Source: a virus
Taxonomy: Duplodnaviria > Heunggongvirae > Uroviricota > Caudoviricetes
IMG/VR virus record: IMGVR_UViG_2703718834_000011
Location: 1 to 24,836 of that record
Direction: 5' to 3' (one strand)
DNA length: 24,836 bases
This document shows, one piece after another, positions 1 to 21,359 of this stretch (positions within the stretch are counted from its first letter, which is position 1; each line of letters starts with the position of its first letter). Position numbers and translations under genes: made by a program. Below the pieces are notes generated by a model. It had not been told where the DNA came from. It saw nothing but the letters and a program-made list of their open reading frames with translations, and did no database searches.

Positions 1-1053
1 TTACGGGGTAATGCCAACCGCTGCCGCCACTTTGTCGCCACTTGGCAGCGTTGCCAGAGGATTGAAACGGAGCGCCGTTTCCAGATGATCCGGTGCCAGA
101 TGTGCGTAACGCATAGTCATTTTTATATCGTGGTGTCCGAGAATTTTTTGTAAGGCCAGAATGTTTCCACCCGACATCATGAAGTGCGCCGCAAACGTAT
201 GGCGCAGAACGTGTGTGAGTTGACCGCGAGGGAGCACGATAGACGTTTTTTCCATCACGGATAAAAATTGAAAATAGCAGTCTGTGAAGAAATTGAACCC
301 ATCAAGCGCCATGATCTCTTCGTAAAGCTCTTTACTGATAGGGATGCTTCTGTTTTTCTTCCCCTTCGTTCTTACAAAGGTAATTCGGTATTTGGTCACC
401 TGTGAACGAGTAAGATTTACGGCTTCTCGCCAGCGAGCGCCTGTGCTTAAGCATATCTTAACTACCAGTGCTAGAATTGGGTCCTGACGTTTGCAATCAG
501 CCAGTAATTCAACAATCTGCTCATGGGTAAGCCATGCCATCTCTTTTTCTGCGATGGTGAATTTTCGCATGTTCTCCAGTGGGTTCGGATACGACCATTC
601 GCCCAGACGGGATAGTTCGCTAAAAACACTACTTAGATAGCTTTGCTCCAGGTTAATGGTGACCGGGCTTGCTCCTTTCTTCCATTTCTCGCTGAAGTAG
701 ATCTCGCCTGTCAGGCGTTTATCTCGATAGTGGGCAAACATTTTAGAGGTGAGATCGGTTGCAAGAGGATTGCCCAGAGCGTCAACCATCAGCAGCAATT
801 TGTCATAGACATGCTGCCCAGCAGTCAGAGATTTACCATGTAGTTTGAACCATAGCTCAACCACGTCTTTCAGGGTTCGACGATCCACTGATTCGCCCAG
901 CCATGGCTTTGATTCGGTTTCTTCCATAGTGTGACGCTCAAAAGCCAGAGCTTCGCCTTTGGTGGCGAATTGTTTACGCACACGACGCCCACTTCGTCCG
1001 GCGGGGTAACATTCGCAAAGCCATTTCCCTGTGGTGAGTTTTCGTACTGCCAT
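1..1053 (-). CDS. int: Tyrosine integrase (P2/186-type site-specific recombinase); window begins at its stop codon
   Basis: Translation from MAVRKLTTGKW... aligns by eye with P2 Int; C-terminal catalytic region LSTGARWREA ... HVLRHTFAAHFMMSGGNILALQKILGHHDIKMTMRYAHL shows the R..HxxR..Y tyrosine recombinase signature. Start set at ATG 1051-1053 (GGAGGG RBS upstream) rather than the ORF-track 1209. Confidence 0.88.
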   Translation of the reverse strand: MAVRKLTTGKWLCECYPAGRSGRRVRKQFATKGEALAFERHTMEETESKPWLGESVDRRTLKDVVELWFKLHGKSLTAGQHVYDKLLLMVDALGNPLATDLTSKMFAHYRDKRLTGEIYFSEKWKKGASPVTINLEQSYLSSVFSELSRLGEWSYPNPLENMRKFTIAEKEMAWLTHEQIVELLADCKRQDPILALVVKICLSTGARWREAVNLTRSQVTKYRITFVRTKGKKNRSIPISKELYEEIMALDGFNFFTDCYFQFLSVMEKTSIVLPRGQLTHVLRHTFAAHFMMSGGNILALQKILGHHDIKMTMRYAHLAPDHLETALRFNPLATLPSGDKVAAAVGITP

Positions 1054-1241
1054 AAAAAATGCCCTCCAGTAGAGAGCATTTTTACTGTATGTATAACCAG
1101 TGTCAATGTATGAAATCCTACGACCATACATCTCACTGAAGCCATAATGAAGTTGGCTATTCTTTTTGCTATGTGAGCATGTAACTTTTGCGGTTAACCT
1201 GCGGCTCATTTTTATTTTAGACGCAGGTATAAAAGCAAAAG

Positions 1242-1433
1242 TTATCGTGAGTTTTTAGTACAGATTTTTTTGGATTTACTAATAGTTCCATCATTACAAA
1301 CGAATTTGCCATCTGAGGTACAGTGAGAAACACCTCCCTTTTTCCCTGAGCAGGGATAATTTCTAGCATAGGTAGTTAGTGGGTTTAATAACAAAGAACA
1401 TGACAAAACCACAAAAAATACCTTACCAAGCAT
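1242..1433 (-). CDS. Small cysteine-rich protein with N-terminal signal peptide (63 aa), hypothetical
   Basis: [35 protein letters not shown]... has a hydrophobic N-terminal leader and several Cys in the mature part; strong RBS GGGAGG 6 nt upstream of ATG at 1433; sits between cI and int in an AT-rich stretch. Confidence 0.4.
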
Positions 1434-1448
1434 AGTTTCCTCCCGGTA

Positions 1449-2018
1449 CTATTTAACATACTTGACTGTTAAACTTATAATTTTACCAATTATTTCAATG
1501 TCTTCTATCTTACATTCGAAGGCTCTGTTTCCACCCTCGACGAAGATTCTTCCACCGGGTAAACGAGTAATGTCACGGATCGTTACTTCGCCATCAATAC
1601 TTATTACCCATTTACCATCACGTATATCATCAAATTCTTTATCACAAATAAATTCAGAATTGTTATCTGTGATGACAAAAGGTTTTTTAAACGTAGAGGG
1701 TAGAAATCCCTTATCAAAAATATAAAAACCGTCTTCACGCAAGGCACCATCAGATAATACATATTTAGCAACTTCCATAGTATTTGTATTACCTGAAGTT
1801 TGCTTTGAACCATGTCCGGTTGTGAGCCAATTAAGCGAGGTGCCCGTTTCAAGGGCGCACTGGATTACCCATTCTGCTGGGAATGAGTCACGCATGTAGC
1901 GTGTGGCGAGTGTACTTTTAGAGATTCCTAAATGATCGCACAACGCCTGTCGAGTTTTGAATCCATAAGCTTCTACCATGCGCTCTATAGCGCCTCGTCC
2001 GCCTTTCTCCAAATTCAT
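1449..2018 (-). CDS. cI: Phage 186-type CI immunity repressor (N-terminal HTH, C-terminal oligomerisation domain)
   Basis: About 189 aa; N-terminal ...EAYGF...LCDHLGISKSTLATRY... and C-terminal ...RLPGGRIFVEGG..FEC.I.DI. resemble 186 CI as I recall it; much larger than the 99-aa P2 C. Start set at ATG 2016-2018 (ORF-track 2024 is GTG) with GGAG RBS. Confidence 0.8.
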   Translation of the reverse strand: MNLEKGGRGAIERMVEAYGFKTRQALCDHLGISKSTLATRYMRDSFPAEWVIQCALETGTSLNWLTTGHGSKQTSGNTNTMEVAKYVLSDGALREDGFYIFDKGFLPSTFKKPFVITDNNSEFICDKEFDDIRDGKWVISIDGEVTIRDITRLPGGRIFVEGGNRAFECKIEDIEIIGKIISLTVKYVK

Positions 2019-2043
2019 GGTCACTCCAAGTGAACTTTTATCT

Positions 2044-2914: not shown

Positions 2915-3211
2915 ATGCTGACGAAAGAACCATCATTTGCATCGCTGCTGGTAAAGCAAAGCCCGGCAATGCACTACGGTCACGGCTGGATCATGGGTGA
3001 GGATGGAAAACGCTGGCATCCATGTCATTCACAAGATGAATTGCTGTCTGAATTGACCACGAGGAAACGGAGAAAGTCAAAATGTATGCAGCGGAAAGTG
3101 AAGTGGTTTATCAGTTTTGTTACAGAGGGGAGAGTTATTCAGTACCTGAAGATGATTTGCTCTGTTGTTATCCGTCGTTGTCGGGCGATGGCAGTTACTT
3201 TTTCACGCTAA
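2915..3211 (+). CDS. Hypothetical early protein (position of 186 fil/dhr-type small genes); 3' portion overlaps next ORF in another frame
   Basis: ATG 2915 with GAGGTG RBS; N-terminal MLTKEPSFASLLVKQSPAMHYGHGWIMGEDGKRWHPC looks protein-like; the C-terminal third looks like low-complexity out-of-frame read-through. Confidence 0.4.
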   Translation: MLTKEPSFASLLVKQSPAMHYGHGWIMGEDGKRWHPCHSQDELLSELTTRKRRKSKCMQRKVKWFISFVTEGRVIQYLKMICSVVIRRCRAMAVTFSR

Positions 3212-8138: not shown

Positions 8139-8696
8139 TCACATAAACATCTGGATTTGCTCGTTTTTTAGTTGGTTGATTTTTTCGCGCAATCTGATCT
8201 TTTCATCAGCTTTTTCCAAAGAGGCTGGTGACATGCAGTTAATCAAAGCGTCAAGGTGCTCTGGAGATTTGATAATAAAGAACTTTTTGTATTTATTAAC
8301 AAAAACGACAGAGCATTTTTTACGTTTAAGAAGCTCAATCACGTTACTCAGAGTACCCGTGCTCTTCGTATCCCAAACCATTAATCCATAATCGGCTTCT
8401 TCTGCCATTTTGAGATCTTTCGCAGTGAAAAACGCGCGAGTGCCGGCTGCATGGCTAGTACTTACTACATGTACAGGCCATGAGCCAAGATTATTGCGCG
8501 GTTTTTCTGAGCTACTGAATACTGTGGCTTTTTTACATCCAAGTTCTAGCAATACGCGTTGAACAGATGAATCAACACCATTGGCATCACCAACTACAAT
8601 ACGAAAACGCGAGTTAACAATTTTTTTCAGACGATCCACGATGAGTGTGTCAAGGTTTTTGATGGTTATTGAACCAGCAACAAATACCGTAGTCAT
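8139..8696 (-). CDS. SLOG / DprA-like Rossmann-fold protein (about 185 aa), downstream partner of the PRTase gene
   Basis: VFVAGSITIKNLD...RIVVGDANGVDSSVQRVLLELG...GLMVWDTKSTGTLSNVIELLKRKKCSVVFV resembles the DprA/LOG fold (compare DprA VVSGLARGID ... SGSLITARLALEQG). Start set at ATG 8694-8696 (GGAG RBS), 2 nt after the PRTase stop; the track start 8708 is TTG. Confidence 0.6.
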   Translation of the reverse strand: MTTVFVAGSITIKNLDTLIVDRLKKIVNSRFRIVVGDANGVDSSVQRVLLELGCKKATVFSSSEKPRNNLGSWPVHVVSTSHAAGTRAFFTAKDLKMAEEADYGLMVWDTKSTGTLSNVIELLKRKKCSVVFVNKYKKFFIIKSPEHLDALINCMSPASLEKADEKIRLREKINQLKNEQIQMFM

Positions 8697-8698
8697 CA

Positions 8699-9280
8699 CT
8701 ATCTCCAAGTCAAAGCTGCAACATAAATGCTTCTAACCTTAGTATAATCGTTTAGCACAGCACAAGCAGCCTCCATAGATGCGCCTGTATGGTAGAGGTC
8801 GTCAATGATAAGGACATTCCAGTTGCCATTATTCTCAATACTGTCATTAACAGAGAACGAATTACCCAGCGCCGTGATTTTCTCTTCTTTTGTATTCAGG
8901 TTCTTTAGCGAAGCCCCGCCGGGGGCTTTCAACAAGAGGTCATCGAAGCATGGTTTGCCAACTAGTTTGGCTAGTTCCTGAGCTATTTCGGTCACTGGCT
9001 GGCGTGCACGCTGATTAGATGCAGCCATTGGAACGATAAACCCGACATTGCTGAAATGAGGAAAGGCATGCTCTGCTAGGCATTGGGCTAAAGGCTTAAC
9101 TTGTGACCAATCGTCACGGTATTTAAGCTGGAAAAGAGATTCGCCTACCTCAGTACGCTCAGTCTCAAACCGCATATGTCCCCACTCATCGTAACCAATG
9201 GGAATGCTGCGGATGCTGTGTTTATCCATCGCAAGACCTAATTCCCAATTTCCAACAATCTGTTTTATGTTGACTTTCAT
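8699..9280 (-). CDS. Type I phosphoribosyltransferase-domain protein (ComF/PRTase-like), 193 aa
   Basis: C-terminal PRPP-binding motif NVLIIDDLYHTGASMEAA (hydrophobic-DD-x-x-TG-x-S/T); ATG at 9280 with RBS; tightly coupled to the SLOG gene. Confidence 0.7.
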   Translation of the reverse strand: MKVNIKQIVGNWELGLAMDKHSIRSIPIGYDEWGHMRFETERTEVGESLFQLKYRDDWSQVKPLAQCLAEHAFPHFSNVGFIVPMAASNQRARQPVTEIAQELAKLVGKPCFDDLLLKAPGGASLKNLNTKEEKITALGNSFSVNDSIENNGNWNVLIIDDLYHTGASMEAACAVLNDYTKVRSIYVAALTWR

Positions 9281-9685: not shown

Positions 9686-10954
9686 ATGGAAATTTTTGAT
9701 ACGAATGATATCTTTGGGCTCTCAAGAGATTTGCCACTTAATTACATTGAAAGACCTGATGTTGATTTCAAACTTAAACAGGAATTACAAGCAAAGAAAC
9801 ATATTGTTATTTACGGCAGTTCAAAGCAGGGTAAGACTTGCGTAAGAAAACACTGTATTAATTCTGATGATTATATTTTGGTGCAGTGTTCGAATCGTTC
9901 TGATGTATCTGAATTGAATGCAAGTATTTTAAAAAGAGCTGGATTCGAAATAACTCAGTCTACCAAGAAAGGTATTACGGGGAAAAATAAAATAATCGCA
10001 TCAATAAAAACTTCTATTTTGGGCTTTGTGGCGAGTGCCGGAGGCGAGATCGAAGATACGAAATCTCATGAACAAGTAACCGCGCCTTTAGAAATTGATG
10101 TTGATGATGTTAATGATGTTATAGCGGCTTTAAAATCTATAAATTTCAAGAAGATTATCGTTCTTGAGGATTTTCATTATATGCCTTTCGAAACTCAAAG
10201 AGATTTTTCGATCGCATTAAAAGCCTTTCATGAAACATCAAGCATTATTTTTGTAATTGTTGGAGTTTGGCTAGAAGATAATCGGCTCATTGTCTACAAT
10301 GGTGACTTAACTGGCAGGATTATTTCTGTTAACGCAGACAAATGGCAAGATTCTGAACTGGAGATGGCAATTGATAAAGGAGGTTTACTCCTTAACATTG
10401 ATTTTGATCCAACTTTCAAAGCAGATGTAGTAACACACTGTCTCAATAGTATTTATTTAGTGCAAGAAGCATGTAGGCGTGCGTGTATTGAATGCGGAAT
10501 ATCAGAGACTCAGCAAACAAAAAGAACTATTGGAGCTGGTTTGGATGGAAAGGATATCATTGCAAAAATTGTTAATGACCAATCGGCTCGTTACAATTCT
10601 TTCCTTATTAATTTTTCAGATGGATTTCAAGATACTGAACTTCAAATGCATAAATGGATTTTATATCCTGTCCTTTCATCAACCATTAGTGAACTTGAAT
10701 TAGGTTTGAAATTTAAAGATATAAGGGCAATATTACAAAGTGTACATCCAAGAGGGGAGAAGTTAAACCTGGGTAATGTTACTCAGTCGTTACAATCAAC
10801 GGCGTCTTTGCAAATAAAGAAAAATATAATGCCTATTATTTTGGATTATGACCAAACAAATAGGAAACTGAATGTTGTTGATAAAGGCTTCCTAATATGG
10901 TTGCAACATCAAGATATCAAAGATCTAAAGGATGATTTGGAGTTGCCAAATTAA
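9686..10954 (+). CDS. P-loop NTPase (Walker A and B), 422 aa, AT-rich; candidate single-gene defence or moron ATPase
   Basis: Walker A IVIYGSSKQGKTC (GxxxxGKT) and Walker B KKIIVLEDFH; ATG at 9686; C-terminal about 250 aa without recognisable motif; visibly lower G+C than flanking phage genes; sits between the cos-like site and Q. Confidence 0.65.
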   Translation: MEIFDTNDIFGLSRDLPLNYIERPDVDFKLKQELQAKKHIVIYGSSKQGKTCVRKHCINSDDYILVQCSNRSDVSELNASILKRAGFEITQSTKKGITGKNKIIASIKTSILGFVASAGGEIEDTKSHEQVTAPLEIDVDDVNDVIAALKSINFKKIIVLEDFHYMPFETQRDFSIALKAFHETSSIIFVIVGVWLEDNRLIVYNGDLTGRIISVNADKWQDSELEMAIDKGGLLLNIDFDPTFKADVVTHCLNSIYLVQEACRRACIECGISETQQTKRTIGAGLDGKDIIAKIVNDQSARYNSFLINFSDGFQDTELQMHKWILYPVLSSTISELELGLKFKDIRAILQSVHPRGEKLNLGNVTQSLQSTASLQIKKNIMPIILDYDQTNRKLNVVDKGFLIWLQHQDIKDLKDDLELPN

Positions 10955-19740: not shown

Positions 19741-21261
19741 CTAAGCTGGGGTTATCAGAGTATCAATTCTCTTGATATCTGCAGCCGTTGCGTGAGGGCA
19801 TTTTTTCAGGATGTTTAGCCATTTTTTATCTCTGGGTTGGTATTCTAAGTCACCATCGGTTTCAAGTTTCGAAAGAATGCCAACAATATCACTGTGGCTA
19901 ATCCAATCTTGTTTTTCTTTAAATACATTCCATGTTGCCCAGCACTTCCCTATTTCAGATGGGGACGACCATCGCATAATTTCTATTATATGGGATATTT
20001 TTTTGTCGAAACTTTCAGTGCCGGGGCTAGGGCTTATTCTTAAAATGTTAGAGAAAGGTACTTCAGCATAGTTGAAGTCCCAAACCCCTTCTGTTTCGAT
20101 GCACATTTTGACAACAGAAGCATGAAAATCTTGACGTATAAGCTCGTCAGGGTAACCGTGATTGTTGCTAAGTGTTATGACTACATTAACTAAAGCATCG
20201 AACTCTCTGTAGGGGATAATATTGTCTGGAGAAAGAAGTTTTCCGCCGAATTGAATGTACAATATTGGTTTCTTTAGAATGTCAATTATGGCTTTTGTCA
20301 CGGCCCAGCTTGCAGCTCTTTGAGGACATAAGGCTTCTAGTTCCGCTTTTTTATTTTTTTTTCCTTTCGTAACGGTATCCATTACAGTTTTTATTTTGGG
20401 AAGAACATGTTCGTGCTCAAGGTTGAAACGATGAGGTGATTCTTTAAAGGATTTATATTCCTGAGATAAATCTGCAAGGAAGTCTTCTATGGTTGCTTTA
20501 ATCAGGTGTATATTTTTTGATTTAAATAAATACTTTGTCTCCTCGAAAGTTAAAGGGTTTGCATCTGGGTGAATTACCATGAATGCTGGCGGGTTTTTTC
20601 CATGCAGATGTGCTAATGCTTCTTCATAAAGGAAACCTATATTTGGGTCGGTTAAGCTGTAACCGATGAATATAGGGGACATTTCTGAAAACAATGTGTA
20701 AATTTTTCGGCTAAGATAAGTGTCTTCGCGCTGAAAAGAAAAGTATTGACTTTGTGTTATAACAATCGAATCAGGTTTTCCGACGTCACCATGAATTTTG
20801 AAGATATTTTTCCCTTTTGTTGATACTTTAGGGAATGGATCCTTTCTGATGATTTTATTTGCCATATGCTCAAATGTTTCTTCAAGCACCTCATCCCAGT
20901 TAGTTGTTACAATTGTATTGGGAGCGAAGAGTTTGAATCTTTTAAGCCATCTTGGTTCTTTAGTTTCTGTTTTTAAATCTATAATCGTCCTGGCAACGAG
21001 CGAATTGAAATCATATTCTTTTATTGATGATTCACTCATCGCATAACTTAAAAGTAATTCTGCAGCACGCAGAGGCTGTGATGAATCTAATTTTAACGGG
21101 TACTCTATTCGCTTTGCTATTTCTTCAAGTACGGCCCCCCAACTTGGATATCCGAAATTGTACGAAAATCCAGAGCCAATCCAGAGGAAATAACTCTTTG
21201 AAAATACTGATGATAATAGGGATTTTTTATTTTCTGAAGATAATTGATCTAAGCAACTCAT
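19741..21261 (-). CDS. SIR2-domain protein (defence-type sirtuin-like NADase fold at N-terminus, uncharacterised C-terminal domain), about 506 aa, AT-rich insertion between S and V
   Basis: Motifs FLWIGSGFS (GAGxS-like Rossmann loop), IVTTNWDEVLE (TTNxD) and IFKIHGDV (catalytic His) in the order seen in ThsA/DSR-type SIR2 domains; start set at ATG 21259-21261 with GGAAGGA RBS (track start 21330 is GTG). Confidence 0.65.
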   Translation of the reverse strand: MSCLDQLSSENKKSLLSSVFSKSYFLWIGSGFSYNFGYPSWGAVLEEIAKRIEYPLKLDSSQPLRAAELLLSYAMSESSIKEYDFNSLVARTIIDLKTETKEPRWLKRFKLFAPNTIVTTNWDEVLEETFEHMANKIIRKDPFPKVSTKGKNIFKIHGDVGKPDSIVITQSQYFSFQREDTYLSRKIYTLFSEMSPIFIGYSLTDPNIGFLYEEALAHLHGKNPPAFMVIHPDANPLTFEETKYLFKSKNIHLIKATIEDFLADLSQEYKSFKESPHRFNLEHEHVLPKIKTVMDTVTKGKKNKKAELEALCPQRAASWAVTKAIIDILKKPILYIQFGGKLLSPDNIIPYREFDALVNVVITLSNNHGYPDELIRQDFHASVVKMCIETEGVWDFNYAEVPFSNILRISPSPGTESFDKKISHIIEIMRWSSPSEIGKCWATWNVFKEKQDWISHSDIVGILSKLETDGDLEYQPRDKKWLNILKKCPHATAADIKRIDTLITPA

Positions 21262-21295
21262 AAGAATCCTTCCAAAACAGATTTGATGATCATCT

Positions 21296-21313
21296 TGTGT
21301 GGGTGACTGCACA
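21296..21313. promoter_or_regulatory. TGT-N12-ACA dyad (TGTgtgggtgactgcACA), candidate late-activator site for the V-W-J-I-H operon
   Basis: Near-identical to the dyad at 13846-13863; 47 bp upstream of the V ATG, between divergent SIR2-like and V genes. Confidence 0.4.
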
Positions 21314-21359
21314 AACCTCTTTAATATCACTGTCGTTTACGATAGGCAATGATTTCCAT

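What the first reader, a model, noticed from the sequence alone, without database searches (positions are those of the whole stretch)
1242..1433. Small secreted cysteine-rich ORF between cI and int
A 63-aa ORF with a strong RBS, a signal-peptide-like N-terminus and four or more Cys residues occupies an AT-rich gap between the repressor and integrase genes. Its orientation implies co-transcription with cI/int in the lysogen, the classic arrangement for a lysogenic-conversion moron (for example a periplasmic or surface factor).
Basis: partly seen in the sequence, partly recalled or inferred. Interest (0 to 1): 0.4.

Follow-up and report, generated by a model that had tools for sequence, protein, structure and literature searches.

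The report
Secreted YdcA-family gene behind prophage repressor
A real, strongly conserved 63-codon gene sits directly behind the repressor gene of a P2/186-like E. coli prophage and encodes an exported, disulfide-stapled mini-protein of the catalogued but functionally unknown YdcA family; it is an ordinary passenger gene whose job has never been tested.

Summary
It has a GGGAGG ribosome-binding site and starts 15 nt after the cI stop codon. It is a real gene. It passes the NCBIfam YdcA-subfamily cut-off, matches phrog_6000, and RefSeq already names it "YdcA family protein". About 11% of complete E. coli genomes, including BL21, carry the module. Against diverged prophage copies, synonymous sites are saturated while the 32-residue core changes at 1-2 positions.

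The N-terminus behaves as a Sec/signal-peptidase-I presequence (cleavage A23|R24), not a lipoprotein signal. The mature ~40-residue peptide is basic and has four family-invariant cysteines.

Phage 186 has cI overlapping int, so this gene is an insertion into the lysogenic operon. The same cI→ydcA order recurs behind six cI lineages (33-72% identical), from E. coli to Haemophilus phage HP2. In relatives the slot also holds defence genes.

Function is untested. Clues are remote homology to Dis2 of the Legionella Dot/Icm outer-membrane cap and rare fusions to three nuclease families. My best guess is an envelope-acting accessory or exclusion factor (low confidence).

The parts
1242..1433 (-). ydcA-like coding sequence (63 codons plus TAA stop), YdcA family (PF27300 / NCBIfam NF007463 / phrog_6000)
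   Evidence: Purifying selection.
1365..1433 (-). Predicted Sec signal peptide, residues 1-23 (K4, hydrophobic core V5-L16, N17-P18, T-Y-A23 then cleavage before R24). C12 is not conserved and has no lipobox.
   Evidence: Inferred from composition and family alignment; no dedicated predictor was run.
1245..1364 (-). Mature peptide, 40 residues, pI 9.7, net charge about +7. It has four family-invariant Cys (C28, C38, C46, C58) plus near-invariant H37, D48, K32 and K55. Predicted fold is a short helix plus a beta-hairpin.
   Evidence: Disulfides are inferred from the solved relative Dis2.
1439..1444 (-). Shine-Dalgarno GGGAGG, 5 nt upstream of the ATG, inside the 15-nt cI-ydcA intergenic gap (1434-1448)
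1449..2024 (-). cI repressor gene (186-type). It is the upstream gene of the same transcription unit.
1182..1244 (-). Stable stem-loop in the RNA immediately after (and including) the ydcA-like stop codon. It has no U-tract and its role is unknown.
   Evidence: spacer folds at -62 kcal/mol, z = -6.4
1054..1083 (-). A-tract/stem/U-tract hairpin (AAAAAUGCUCUCU-ACU-GGAGGGCAUUUUUU) ending at the int AUG and sequestering the int Shine-Dalgarno. It looks like a terminator or attenuator between ydcA-like and int, and it belongs to the int module shared with other prophages.
   Evidence: Homology boundary near 1113.
1..1053 (-). Integrase gene (350 aa), the downstream gene of the lysogenic operon

Best explanation
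The ORF is a genuine accessory gene inserted into the lysogenic (cI-int) operon of a P2/186-like prophage integrated next to rcdA.

Expression: it is transcribed with cI from the repressor promoter and translated from its own strong ribosome-binding site (both inferred).

Product: the protein is exported by Sec and cut by signal peptidase I after A23 (inferred). This releases a ~40-residue, basic mini-protein of the YdcA family into the periplasm. Two disulfides are inferred from the solved relative Dis2.

It is not needed for lysogeny itself, because phage 186 lacks it.

Most likely role: it acts in the cell envelope of the lysogen as a binding module, close to the outer membrane as its relative Dis2 is, and possibly on a polyanion such as DNA. 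This would give the lysogen or prophage a fitness or exclusion benefit.

What is shown: gene reality, family membership, position, and linkage to cI.
What is inferred: export, co-transcription and disulfides.
What is a hypothesis: the envelope/exclusion role (about 0.3) and nucleic-acid binding (about 0.3).
For: Family membership:
- NF007463 scores 115.8 bits against a cut-off of 93.
- phrog_6000 matches at E 1.9e-34.
- PF27300 'YdcA' is precomputed on 98%-identical P0001.
- RefSeq names the gene 'YdcA family protein' at this locus.

Abundance: 591 of 5,426 complete E. coli genomes carry the module at 80% coverage or more. BL21 carries it too.

Selection:
- 22 synonymous and 2 non-synonymous differences against L167, and 20.5 and 1.5 against Enterobacter L175, in the 32-codon core.
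- 80 of 80 copies intact, with 14 synonymous and 2 non-synonymous variable sites.

Operon position:
- 15-nt gap after cI.
- In Enterobacter the gene ends 2 nt before int.
- In HP2 it overlaps the cI stop by 1 nt.
- cI is followed by ydcA in six cI lineages that are 33-72% identical.
- In phage 186, cI and int overlap, and pL and pE are annotated as driving the lysogenic operon.
- Across 71 species-representative loci, Phage_CI_repr is the joint-top upstream neighbour and Phage_integrase the top downstream neighbour.

The slot holds cargo in relatives: PD-Lambda-1 (400 bits) and the KAP NTPase PDC-S20 (570 bits). The int-gpA interval is described as a minor P2 defence hotspot (PMC13586616).

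Export: presequence features are conserved family-wide. K-12 YdcA is described as having a signal sequence and predicted to be periplasmic.

Fold and relatives:
- AF2 mean pLDDT is 83, with 87-93 in the core.
- Profile hits to Dis2/Lpg0823 reach E 2.6e-5 and 4.5e-5. Dis2 is also the Foldseek top hit.
- Dis2 lies near the outer membrane and is held by disulfides.

Ligand clue:
- The domain is fused to SNase, Endonuclease_NS (three clusters) and PLDc_2 nucleases.
- It also occurs in tandem repeats.
- The mature peptide has net charge about +7.
Against: - There are no expression or phenotype data for the prophage gene.
- It has no match in PADLOC.
- Only 3 of 140 sequenced phage records with this cI type carry it.
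- Chromosomal paralogues occur in non-phage contexts, for example next to cybB or hom/cysS. The function is therefore not phage-specific.
- Nuclease fusions are rare: five small, mostly metagenomic clusters among the 213 family members whose architecture was examined (family: 1,520 clusters). They could reflect tethering rather than DNA binding.
- Net charge across the family ranges from 0 to +10.
- K-12 ydcA data point instead to acid/3-hydroxypropionate tolerance.
- The hairpin before int argues against simple cI-ydcA-int read-through.
Confidence: 0.6

Rival explanations
1. It is an envelope or acid-stress tolerance factor. The prophage supplies an extra, constitutively expressed copy of a host periplasmic stress protein, and it has nothing to do with other phages or DNA.
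For: - A K-12 ydcA deletion makes E. coli W sensitive to 300 mM 3-hydroxypropionate.
- ydcA is reported as YdcI-controlled and induced at pH 5 (PMC7642389).
- An RpoS-holoenzyme SELEX site lies in the rydC-ydcA intergenic region (PMC5493296).
- rydC, next to ydcA, governs membrane acid resistance.
- Many family members are chromosomal.
Against: - The prophage protein belongs to a different NCBIfam equivalog from K-12 YdcA: NF007462 scores only 68.5 bits against a cut-off of 118. It is about 57% identical to the chromosomal copy.
- This does not explain the repeated coupling to cI, or carriage on phages and small mobilizable plasmids.
- The 3-hydroxypropionate phenotype was not mechanistically followed up.
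Confidence: 0.2
2. It is an outer-membrane lipoprotein that masks a receptor, a Cor/Llp-type surface exclusion factor, using C12 as the lipidated cysteine.
For: - C12 follows V-L-S, loosely lipobox-like.
- One UniRef entry for a Yersinia homologue is called 'Lipoprotein'.
Against: - C12 is not conserved. Relatives have S, G, T, F, V, I or L at this position.
- K4 lies within six residues of the box.
- The invariant feature is Ala at -1 of the A23|R24 site.
Confidence: 0.03
3. It is a secreted cationic, cysteine-stabilised antimicrobial peptide or toxin, released on lysis or via vesicles, and used against competitors.
For: - It is small, basic (pI 9.7, net charge +7) and has four disulfide-forming Cys, resembling defensin-like peptides.
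- It is carried on mobile elements.
Against: - No immunity, maturation or export genes lie next to it.
- It has only a Sec signal, which delivers to the periplasm.
- Family members are fused as N-terminal modules to enzymes, and one is a structural subunit of a secretion machine. Both fit a binding domain rather than a toxin.
Confidence: 0.05
4. It is a chance ORF or non-coding spacer, and the real feature is regulatory RNA or DNA between cI and int.
For: - The region is AT-rich and the ORF is short.
- The downstream spacer RNA is highly structured.
Against: - It scores above the curated family cut-off.
- More than 1,500 homologous clusters exist across Proteobacteria.
- Synonymous sites are saturated while the peptide is nearly unchanged.
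- No Rfam family matches.
Confidence: 0.01

Closest known systems
YdcA family (Pfam PF27300; NCBIfam NF007462/NF007463/NF007464; E. coli K-12 YdcA, 57 aa)
   Same: - Same architecture: a Sec presequence plus a ~35-residue core PCSGxKGGxxHC...FVCNDGxxSxSKxxC with four invariant Cys.
- The window protein passes the NF007463 equivalog cut-off.
- RefSeq already uses this family name for it.
   Different: - It is the prophage subfamily (NF007463), not the chromosomal cybB-adjacent YdcA (NF007462 scores below cut-off; about 57% identity).
- The family has no demonstrated molecular function.
Dis2 (Lpg0823), a subunit of the Legionella pneumophila Dot/Icm type IVB secretion system outer-membrane cap (PDB 7MUC/7MUD)
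   Same: - It is the only solved relative.
- Profile E-values are 2.6e-5 and 4.5e-5 over the presequence plus 'CCS-KMGGINYC...GRLVCNNGFYS', with a weaker second repeat.
- It is also the Foldseek top hit.
- It is periplasmic, close to the outer membrane, and disulfide-pinned.
   Different: - Dis2 has two lobes and five disulfides and is built into a secretion machine.
- The prophage protein is a single free domain with no T4SS genes nearby.
- Dis2's own function is unknown.
Accessory genes co-transcribed with a prophage repressor, such as lambda rexA-rexB behind cI. This comparison rests on established knowledge and was not tested here. Phage 186 orf69, at the end of the cI-int operon, is a second example.
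   Same: A non-essential passenger gene is expressed in the lysogen because it rides on the repressor transcript.
   Different: - RexAB are cytoplasmic or inner-membrane abortive-infection proteins and are unrelated in sequence.
- This product is a tiny exported peptide with an unknown target.
Defence cargo in the integrase-to-primase interval of P2-like prophages (PMC13586616; PD-Lambda-1 and the KAP NTPase PDC-S20 in relatives)
   Same: It occupies the same cI-int slot. In one E. coli lineage ydcA-like and a KAP NTPase sit side by side in that slot.
   Different: - The ydcA-like protein matches no PADLOC model.
- It stays glued to cI while the larger cargo varies.
- No anti-phage activity is known for it.
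Periplasmic blockers of phage DNA entry, such as the HxsA effector of the HXS system (PMC13128918)
   Same: This is a works-like analogy only. Both are signal-peptide-exported. The HXS authors propose that their periplasmic effector engages incoming DNA electrostatically.
   Different: - There is no sequence relationship.
- HxsA needs radical-SAM maturation and has a peptidoglycan-binding domain.
- Nothing comparable was shown for YdcA proteins.

Membership tests
YdcA family (PF27300 / NF007463) | Score above the curated NCBIfam equivalog cut-off | tested here: met
   NF007463 scores 115.8 bits against a cut-off of 93, aligned over residues 5-63 to model positions 1-58 of 58.
YdcA family (PF27300 / NF007463) | Pfam PF27300 domain | tested here: inconclusive
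   The local Pfam copy lacks PF27300, so one search found nothing. The precomputed PF27300 hit is on 98%-identical P0001 and on 58 of the 64 homologues.
YdcA family (PF27300 / NF007463) | Core motif with four invariant Cys (PCSGxKGG..HC...FVCNDG..S.SK..C) | tested here: met
   C28, C38, C46 and C58, plus P27, S29, K32, G33, G34, F44, G49, S52, S54 and K55, are invariant or near-invariant in 40- and 96-sequence alignments. 95 of 96 sequences have exactly four Cys.
YdcA family (PF27300 / NF007463) | N-terminal Sec/SPase I signal peptide | tested here: met
   The n-, h- and c-regions are present, with T-Y-A at -3 to -1. A hydrophobic presequence is present in 96 of 96 relatives, K/R near the N-terminus in 91 of 96, and Ala dominates at -1. 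This is a rule-based check, not SignalP.
Bacterial lipoprotein (SPase II substrate) | Conserved lipobox [LVI][ASTVI][GAS]C with a suitable n- and h-region | tested here: not met
   C12 is not conserved. Relatives that have a Cys there have F, I or V at -1. K4 lies too close to the box.
Moron (autonomous accessory transcription unit in a prophage) | Present in some relatives and absent in others at the same junction | tested here: met
   Phage 186 has cI and int overlapping by 1 nt. 813R9 and 4LV2017 carry other genes in the slot.
Moron (autonomous accessory transcription unit in a prophage) | Own promoter upstream and own terminator downstream | tested here: not met
   - The 15-nt gap to cI leaves no room for a promoter.
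- The consensus scan found no minus-strand promoter or terminator flanking the ORF.
- The stem-loop after the stop codon lacks a U-tract.
Moron (autonomous accessory transcription unit in a prophage) | Base composition distinct from neighbouring phage genes | tested here: inconclusive
   GC is 0.34-0.36 against 0.45-0.51 in int, but the adjoining cI 3' half is 0.30-0.38.
Known anti-phage defence systems (PADLOC-DB 2.0) | Match to a defence-protein model | tested here: not met
   There was no PADLOC match at E 0.01 or better. Neighbouring cargo in relatives does match.
Dis2-type T4BSS outer-membrane-cap subunit | Sequence and fold similarity to a Dis2 lobe | tested here: met
   [not shown]
Dis2-type T4BSS outer-membrane-cap subunit | Two-lobe architecture and association with dot/icm or conjugation genes | tested here: not met
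   This is a single domain inside a P2/186-like prophage, with no T4SS genes nearby.

The most novel reading that the evidence does not exclude
The YdcA domain is a miniature periplasmic nucleic-acid-binding (or DNA-conduit-binding) module. On this reading, the copy riding on the repressor transcript of P2/186/HP2-like prophages is a single-gene, 40-residue exclusion factor. It would intercept foreign DNA, whether from a superinfecting phage, from transformation or from conjugation, as it crosses the envelope.

This would explain three observations:
- the gene is glued to cI in phages from E. coli to Haemophilus;
- it turns up in phages and small plasmids of naturally competent genera (Haemophilus, Moraxella, Acinetobacter);
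- it is fused to three unrelated secreted nuclease families.
Probability: 0.15. Interest if true: 0.7.

Novelty: already known. Interest (0 to 1): 0.3.

Why it matters
The gene itself is catalogued: RefSeq, Pfam, NCBIfam and PHROGs all hold it. The finding therefore adds no new kind of element.

It still has some value because roughly one complete E. coli genome in nine, including BL21, expresses (by inference) this exported mini-protein whenever the prophage repressor is made. Nobody knows what the YdcA family does.

The comparative observations made here give concrete, cheap experiments for an orphan small-protein family:
- tight linkage to cI across very distant Peduoviridae;
- extreme purifying selection;
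- remote homology to the Dot/Icm cap subunit Dis2, which is also of unknown function;
- recurrent fusion to secreted nucleases.

If the domain proves to bind DNA or a secretion or ejection conduit, it would be an unusually small exclusion factor. It would also suggest a role for Dis2.

Tried and rejected
- The local Pfam scan of the ORF gave only a sub-threshold chance hit, because the copy predates PF27300.
- Foldseek against BFVD viral structures found nothing significant.
- The afdb50 library was unavailable.
- Rfam on 900-2400 gave only chance-level hits, so the structured spacer is not a known RNA family.
- PADLOC gave no hit for the ORF.
- The consensus promoter/terminator scan found no minus-strand terminator and only one promoter-like site, near int. 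The number of promoter-like sites was no more than shuffles give.
- megablast against sequenced phages found no close relative of this immunity module. Only the int 5' end matched.
- Literature searches for YdcA returned only incidental mentions.
- The lipoprotein reading was rejected on the lipobox test.
- The chance-ORF reading was rejected on the selection data.
- A metal-site reading of the four Cys plus His was set aside. The solved relative shows disulfides and the protein is exported to an oxidising compartment. It was not tested directly.
- The dN/dS values for Yersinia and HP2 are unreliable, because a one-residue deletion shifts the register. They were not used.
- A recollection that the motif resembles DUF3761 could not be tested, since no such family appeared in the scans. 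It is not claimed.

Full report
**Setting**

The window is the left arm of a P2/186-like (Peduoviridae) prophage. On the minus strand it carries three genes:
- an integrase at 1053-1 (Int_N plus Phage_integrase);
- the small ORF at 1433-1242;
- a 186-type CI repressor at 2024-1449 (Phage_CI_repr plus Phage_CI_C).

On the plus strand, divergently transcribed, lie a Cox/Apl-like gene (2144-2365), cII (2392-2907) and the early and late genes.

Near-identical DNA (99.7%) is chromosomal in E. coli, integrated beside rcdA. RefSeq annotates the small ORF there as 'YdcA family protein' (WP_000900883.1).

**Checking the observation**

- The ORF runs from ATG 1433 to TAA 1244-1242 and encodes 63 aa.
- GGGAGG lies 5 nt before the ATG.
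- Only 15 nt separate the ATG from the cI stop codon.
- There are five cysteines: one in the presequence and four in the mature part.
- The N-terminus has a basic residue (K4) and a 12-residue hydrophobic core (9-residue Kyte-Doolittle mean up to 2.7). N17-P18 and T-Y-A follow, with R24 after A23.
- The region is AT-rich (GC 0.34-0.36). The 3' half of cI is equally so (0.30-0.38), so composition does not single out the ORF.
- The 402-aa 'int' ORF listed mechanically is over-extended. Homologues and RefSeq start at 1053 (MAVRKL...), which leaves a 188-nt spacer.

**Is it a real gene?**

Yes.
- It scores 115.8 bits on NCBIfam NF007463, whose curated cut-off is 93.
- It matches phrog_6000 at E 1.9e-34.
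- A word-indexed search found 64 homologues, 58 of them carrying the precomputed Pfam domain PF27300, which is named YdcA.
- A profile search of 1.84 billion representatives found 441 clusters at 50% identity.
- A broader profile found 1,520 clusters at 90% identity.

Alignments show a variable hydrophobic presequence ending in a conserved Ala. A nearly frozen core follows, [12 protein letters not shown]-x5[15 protein letters not shown], with four invariant Cys.

Selection is extreme.
- Against a diverged E. coli prophage copy (L167), the 32-codon core has 22 synonymous and 2 non-synonymous differences.
- Against an Enterobacter prophage copy (L175), it has 20.5 and 1.5.
- Synonymous sites are therefore saturated while the peptide barely changes.
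- All 80 IMG/VR copies examined are intact, with 14 synonymous and 2 non-synonymous variable sites. The two changes are T20A in the presequence and R24K. That sample was chosen by protein identity, so it is biased.

**Export, not lipidation**

No signal-peptide predictor was available, so this rests on rules and comparison.
- All 96 aligned relatives have a hydrophobic presequence.
- 91 of 96 have K/R near the N-terminus.
- Ala dominates at -1, and A, S, V or T at -3.
- The K-12 paralogue is described in the literature as having a signal sequence and being predicted periplasmic (PMC11340327).
- C12 is not a lipobox cysteine. It is not conserved, and where a Cys occurs at that position in relatives the -1 residue is F, I or V.

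The mature 40-mer has pI 9.7 and net charge about +7. Across the family the charge of the core ranges from 0 to +10, with a median of +4.5.

**Position and transcription**

In the archetype phage 186, cI and int overlap by one base. The record annotates pL (maintenance) and pE (establishment) as driving a cI-int-orf69 lysogenic operon that ends at a terminator near attP. The small gene here is therefore an insertion into that operon.

The same order, cI then ydcA on the same strand, recurs behind six cI lineages that are only 33-72% identical to one another:

| Lineage | Gap from cI to ydcA | What follows ydcA |
|---|---|---|
| This E. coli type | 15 nt | 188-nt spacer, then int |
| A second E. 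coli type | 5-23 nt | KAP-family NTPase, then int |
| Enterobacter | 41-53 nt | int, starting 2 nt after the ydcA stop |
| Yersinia | 47 nt | int, 97 nt downstream |
| Buttiauxella | a 133-aa secreted ORF lies between | no int nearby |
| Haemophilus phages HP2 and S2 | 1-nt overlap with the cI stop | orf1(S), then int |

In HP2 and S2 the homologue is an unannotated 60-aa ORF.

Two further observations support the linkage.
- Where the int differs, the cI-ydcA pair travels together (query positions 266-992 at 88% identity in H120 and H121).
- Across 71 species-representative loci, the commonest upstream neighbour family is Phage_CI_repr, tied with cytochrome b561 (the native E. coli ydcA locus). 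The commonest downstream neighbour is Phage_integrase.

Co-transcription with cI is thus well supported by inference. No transcript data were available.

Co-transcription with int is less certain. The 188-nt spacer RNA folds far better than shuffles (-62 kcal/mol, z = -6.4). It ends in an A-tract/stem/U-tract hairpin (1083-1054) that abuts the int AUG and buries its Shine-Dalgarno sequence.

**A cargo slot**

In relatives, the cI-int interval holds other genes:
- a 558-aa ATPase matching PD-Lambda-1 at 400 bits (phage vB_EcoM-813R9);
- a 349-aa protein of unknown function (Klebsiella phage 4LV2017);
- a KAP NTPase matching the candidate system PDC-S20 at 570 bits.

A 2026 survey lists the integrase-to-primase interval as a minor defence hotspot of P2-like prophages (PMC13586616). 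The ydcA-like protein itself matches no PADLOC model.

**Distribution**

- The module is in 591 of 5,426 complete E. coli genomes at 80% coverage or more.
- The defective BL21 prophage keeps the ORF intact, with the single change R24K.
- Among 140 sequenced phage records with this cI type, only HP2 (two records) and S2 carry a homologue.
- Homologues also occur in the tail-gene region of Moraxella and Acinetobacter phages.
- They occur on Acinetobacter plasmids, including a five-gene 3.9-kb MOBQ plasmid.
- They occur in ordinary chromosomal contexts in Gamma-, Beta- and Alphaproteobacteria.

**Clues to function**

1. Structure. AF2 gives a confident small core: mean pLDDT 83, with 87-93 over residues 31-60. 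It shows a short helix at 30-32 and a beta-hairpin at 35-38 and 44-46.

The only solved relative is Dis2 (Lpg0823), a 13-copy subunit of the Legionella Dot/Icm outer-membrane cap.
- Two different YdcA profiles hit it at E 2.6e-5 and 4.5e-5, with a weaker match to its second lobe.
- It is also the Foldseek top hit, at probability 0.75 but a non-significant E of 0.36.
- The structure paper describes Dis2 as lying near the outer membrane. Its two similar lobes are pinned by five disulfides, it has no structural neighbours, and its function is unknown (PMC8486379).
- This supports disulfide-bonded cysteines and an envelope location for the fold.

2. Domain architecture. Among the 213 family members whose architecture was examined (best 150 representatives, best 120 clusters), the domain sits after the signal peptide in front of several partners:
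- SNase (P0097);
- Endonuclease_NS (P0171, P0185, P0237);
- a PLD-type nuclease domain (P0196);
- a VasL (T6SS) domain (P0096).

It also occurs as tandem duplicates and triplicates (P0065-P0067). Three unrelated nuclease folds sharing one small basic N-terminal module suggest a nucleic-acid-binding or localising role. These fusions are rare and mostly metagenomic.

3. The K-12 paralogue.
- Deleting ydcA made E. coli W sensitive to 300 mM 3-hydroxypropionate.
- The gene is reported as YdcI-controlled and acid-induced (PMC7642389).
- An RpoS SELEX site lies upstream (PMC5493296).

**Most likely mechanism**

Shown:
- It is a conserved, selected protein-coding gene of the YdcA family, located between cI and int.
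- The gene is absent from phage 186, and it is linked to cI across distant phages.

Inferred:
- It is transcribed with cI in the lysogen.
- It is exported by Sec and cleaved at A23|R24.
- It forms two disulfides.
- It resides in the periplasm.

Hypothesis: it is a small binding module acting at the envelope to the benefit of the lysogen or prophage.
- I give about 0.3 to an exclusion or defence role and about 0.3 to a nucleic-acid or other polyanion ligand.
- I give about 0.2 to a stress-tolerance role like that suggested for K-12 ydcA.
- A periplasmic effector proposed to arrest incoming phage DNA electrostatically has recently been described (HXS system, PMC13128918). The concept therefore has precedent, but there is no sequence relationship.

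**Comparison with known families, and novelty**

It is a member of the YdcA family by every testable criterion.
- It is not a lipoprotein.
- It is not a textbook moron, since it has no promoter or terminator of its own.
- It is not a recognised defence protein.
- It is only a distant single-domain relative of Dis2.

The gene and its family are already in RefSeq, Pfam, NCBIfam and PHROGs, so the feature is 'already known', with function unknown.

I did not find three points discussed in the searchable literature: the recurrent cI linkage, the Dis2 homology and the nuclease fusions. I cannot exclude that they are noted elsewhere.

**Verdict**

Novelty is low and interest is modest (0.3). There is a low-probability but testable upside if the domain proves to be a periplasmic DNA-entry or conduit blocker.

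Noticed in passing
window 1054-1106 (-): An A-tract/stem/U-tract hairpin (1083-1054) ends exactly at the int AUG and sequesters the int Shine-Dalgarno GGAGGG. A sigma-70-like TTGACA-17-AAAAAT (1106-1078) has its -10 element inside the hairpin's 5' arm. Read-through transcripts could therefore be terminated or translationally silenced, while transcripts from the proximal promoter would lack the 5' arm and translate int. This segment (1000-1113) is the part shared at 96-99% identity with prophages that have other immunity modules.
   Followed up: partly
window 1182-1244 (-): A long stem-loop starts at the ydcA-like stop codon. It contributes to a spacer fold of -62 kcal/mol (z = -6.4). It has no U-tract and no Rfam match, and its role is unknown.
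   Followed up: partly
[not shown]
   Followed up: partly
L179 about 3001-3099; L180 142-240; L002 3438-3617: In Acinetobacter Vieuvirus phages (where the ORF is unannotated) and Moraxella Mcat phages, YdcA-family ORFs sit among virion and tail genes, upstream of the very large tail gene. This is a different insertion site from the cI-int slot.
   Followed up: no
window 8139-9280 (-), 9686-10954 (+), 19741-21330 (-): There is other probable defence cargo in the same prophage. A ShosT/PsyrT-like protein (8699-9280, with a partner ORF at 8139-8708) and a PDC-S59 candidate (241 bits) lie in the gpA-portal hotspot. A 529-aa SIR2/ThsA-like protein (PDC-S25, 99 bits) lies on the opposite strand among late genes.
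   Followed up: partly
P0097, P0171, P0185, P0237, P0196, P0096, P0065-P0067: The YdcA domain is fused after the signal peptide to SNase, Endonuclease_NS (three clusters), PLDc_2 and VasL domains. It also occurs as tandem double and triple repeats.
   Followed up: partly
P0253, P0312, P0300, P0236, P0245, P0239: A common ~132-aa enterobacterial subfamily adds a Lys-rich linker and a conserved C-terminal motif, [28 protein letters not shown], to the YdcA domain. That tail has no family assignment.
   Followed up: no
L184 (E. coli BL21, NZ_CP053601.1 842424-846572): BL21 carries a degraded copy of this prophage, with cII and the replication gene truncated. The int, ydcA-like (R24K only), cI and cox genes remain intact, which makes BL21 a ready test strain.
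   Followed up: partly
L181 728-904 (pApiMCR53a, 3.9 kb MOBQ plasmid): A five-gene mobilizable Acinetobacter plasmid carries a YdcA-family gene directly after a small 'TraD' gene. This association may explain the stray UniRef name 'Conjugal transfer protein' on the E. coli prophage protein.
   Followed up: no
window 1-1209 (-): The longest ORF for int (402 aa, ATG at 1209) is an over-extension through the spacer. Homologues and RefSeq start at 1053 (350 aa).
   Followed up: yes
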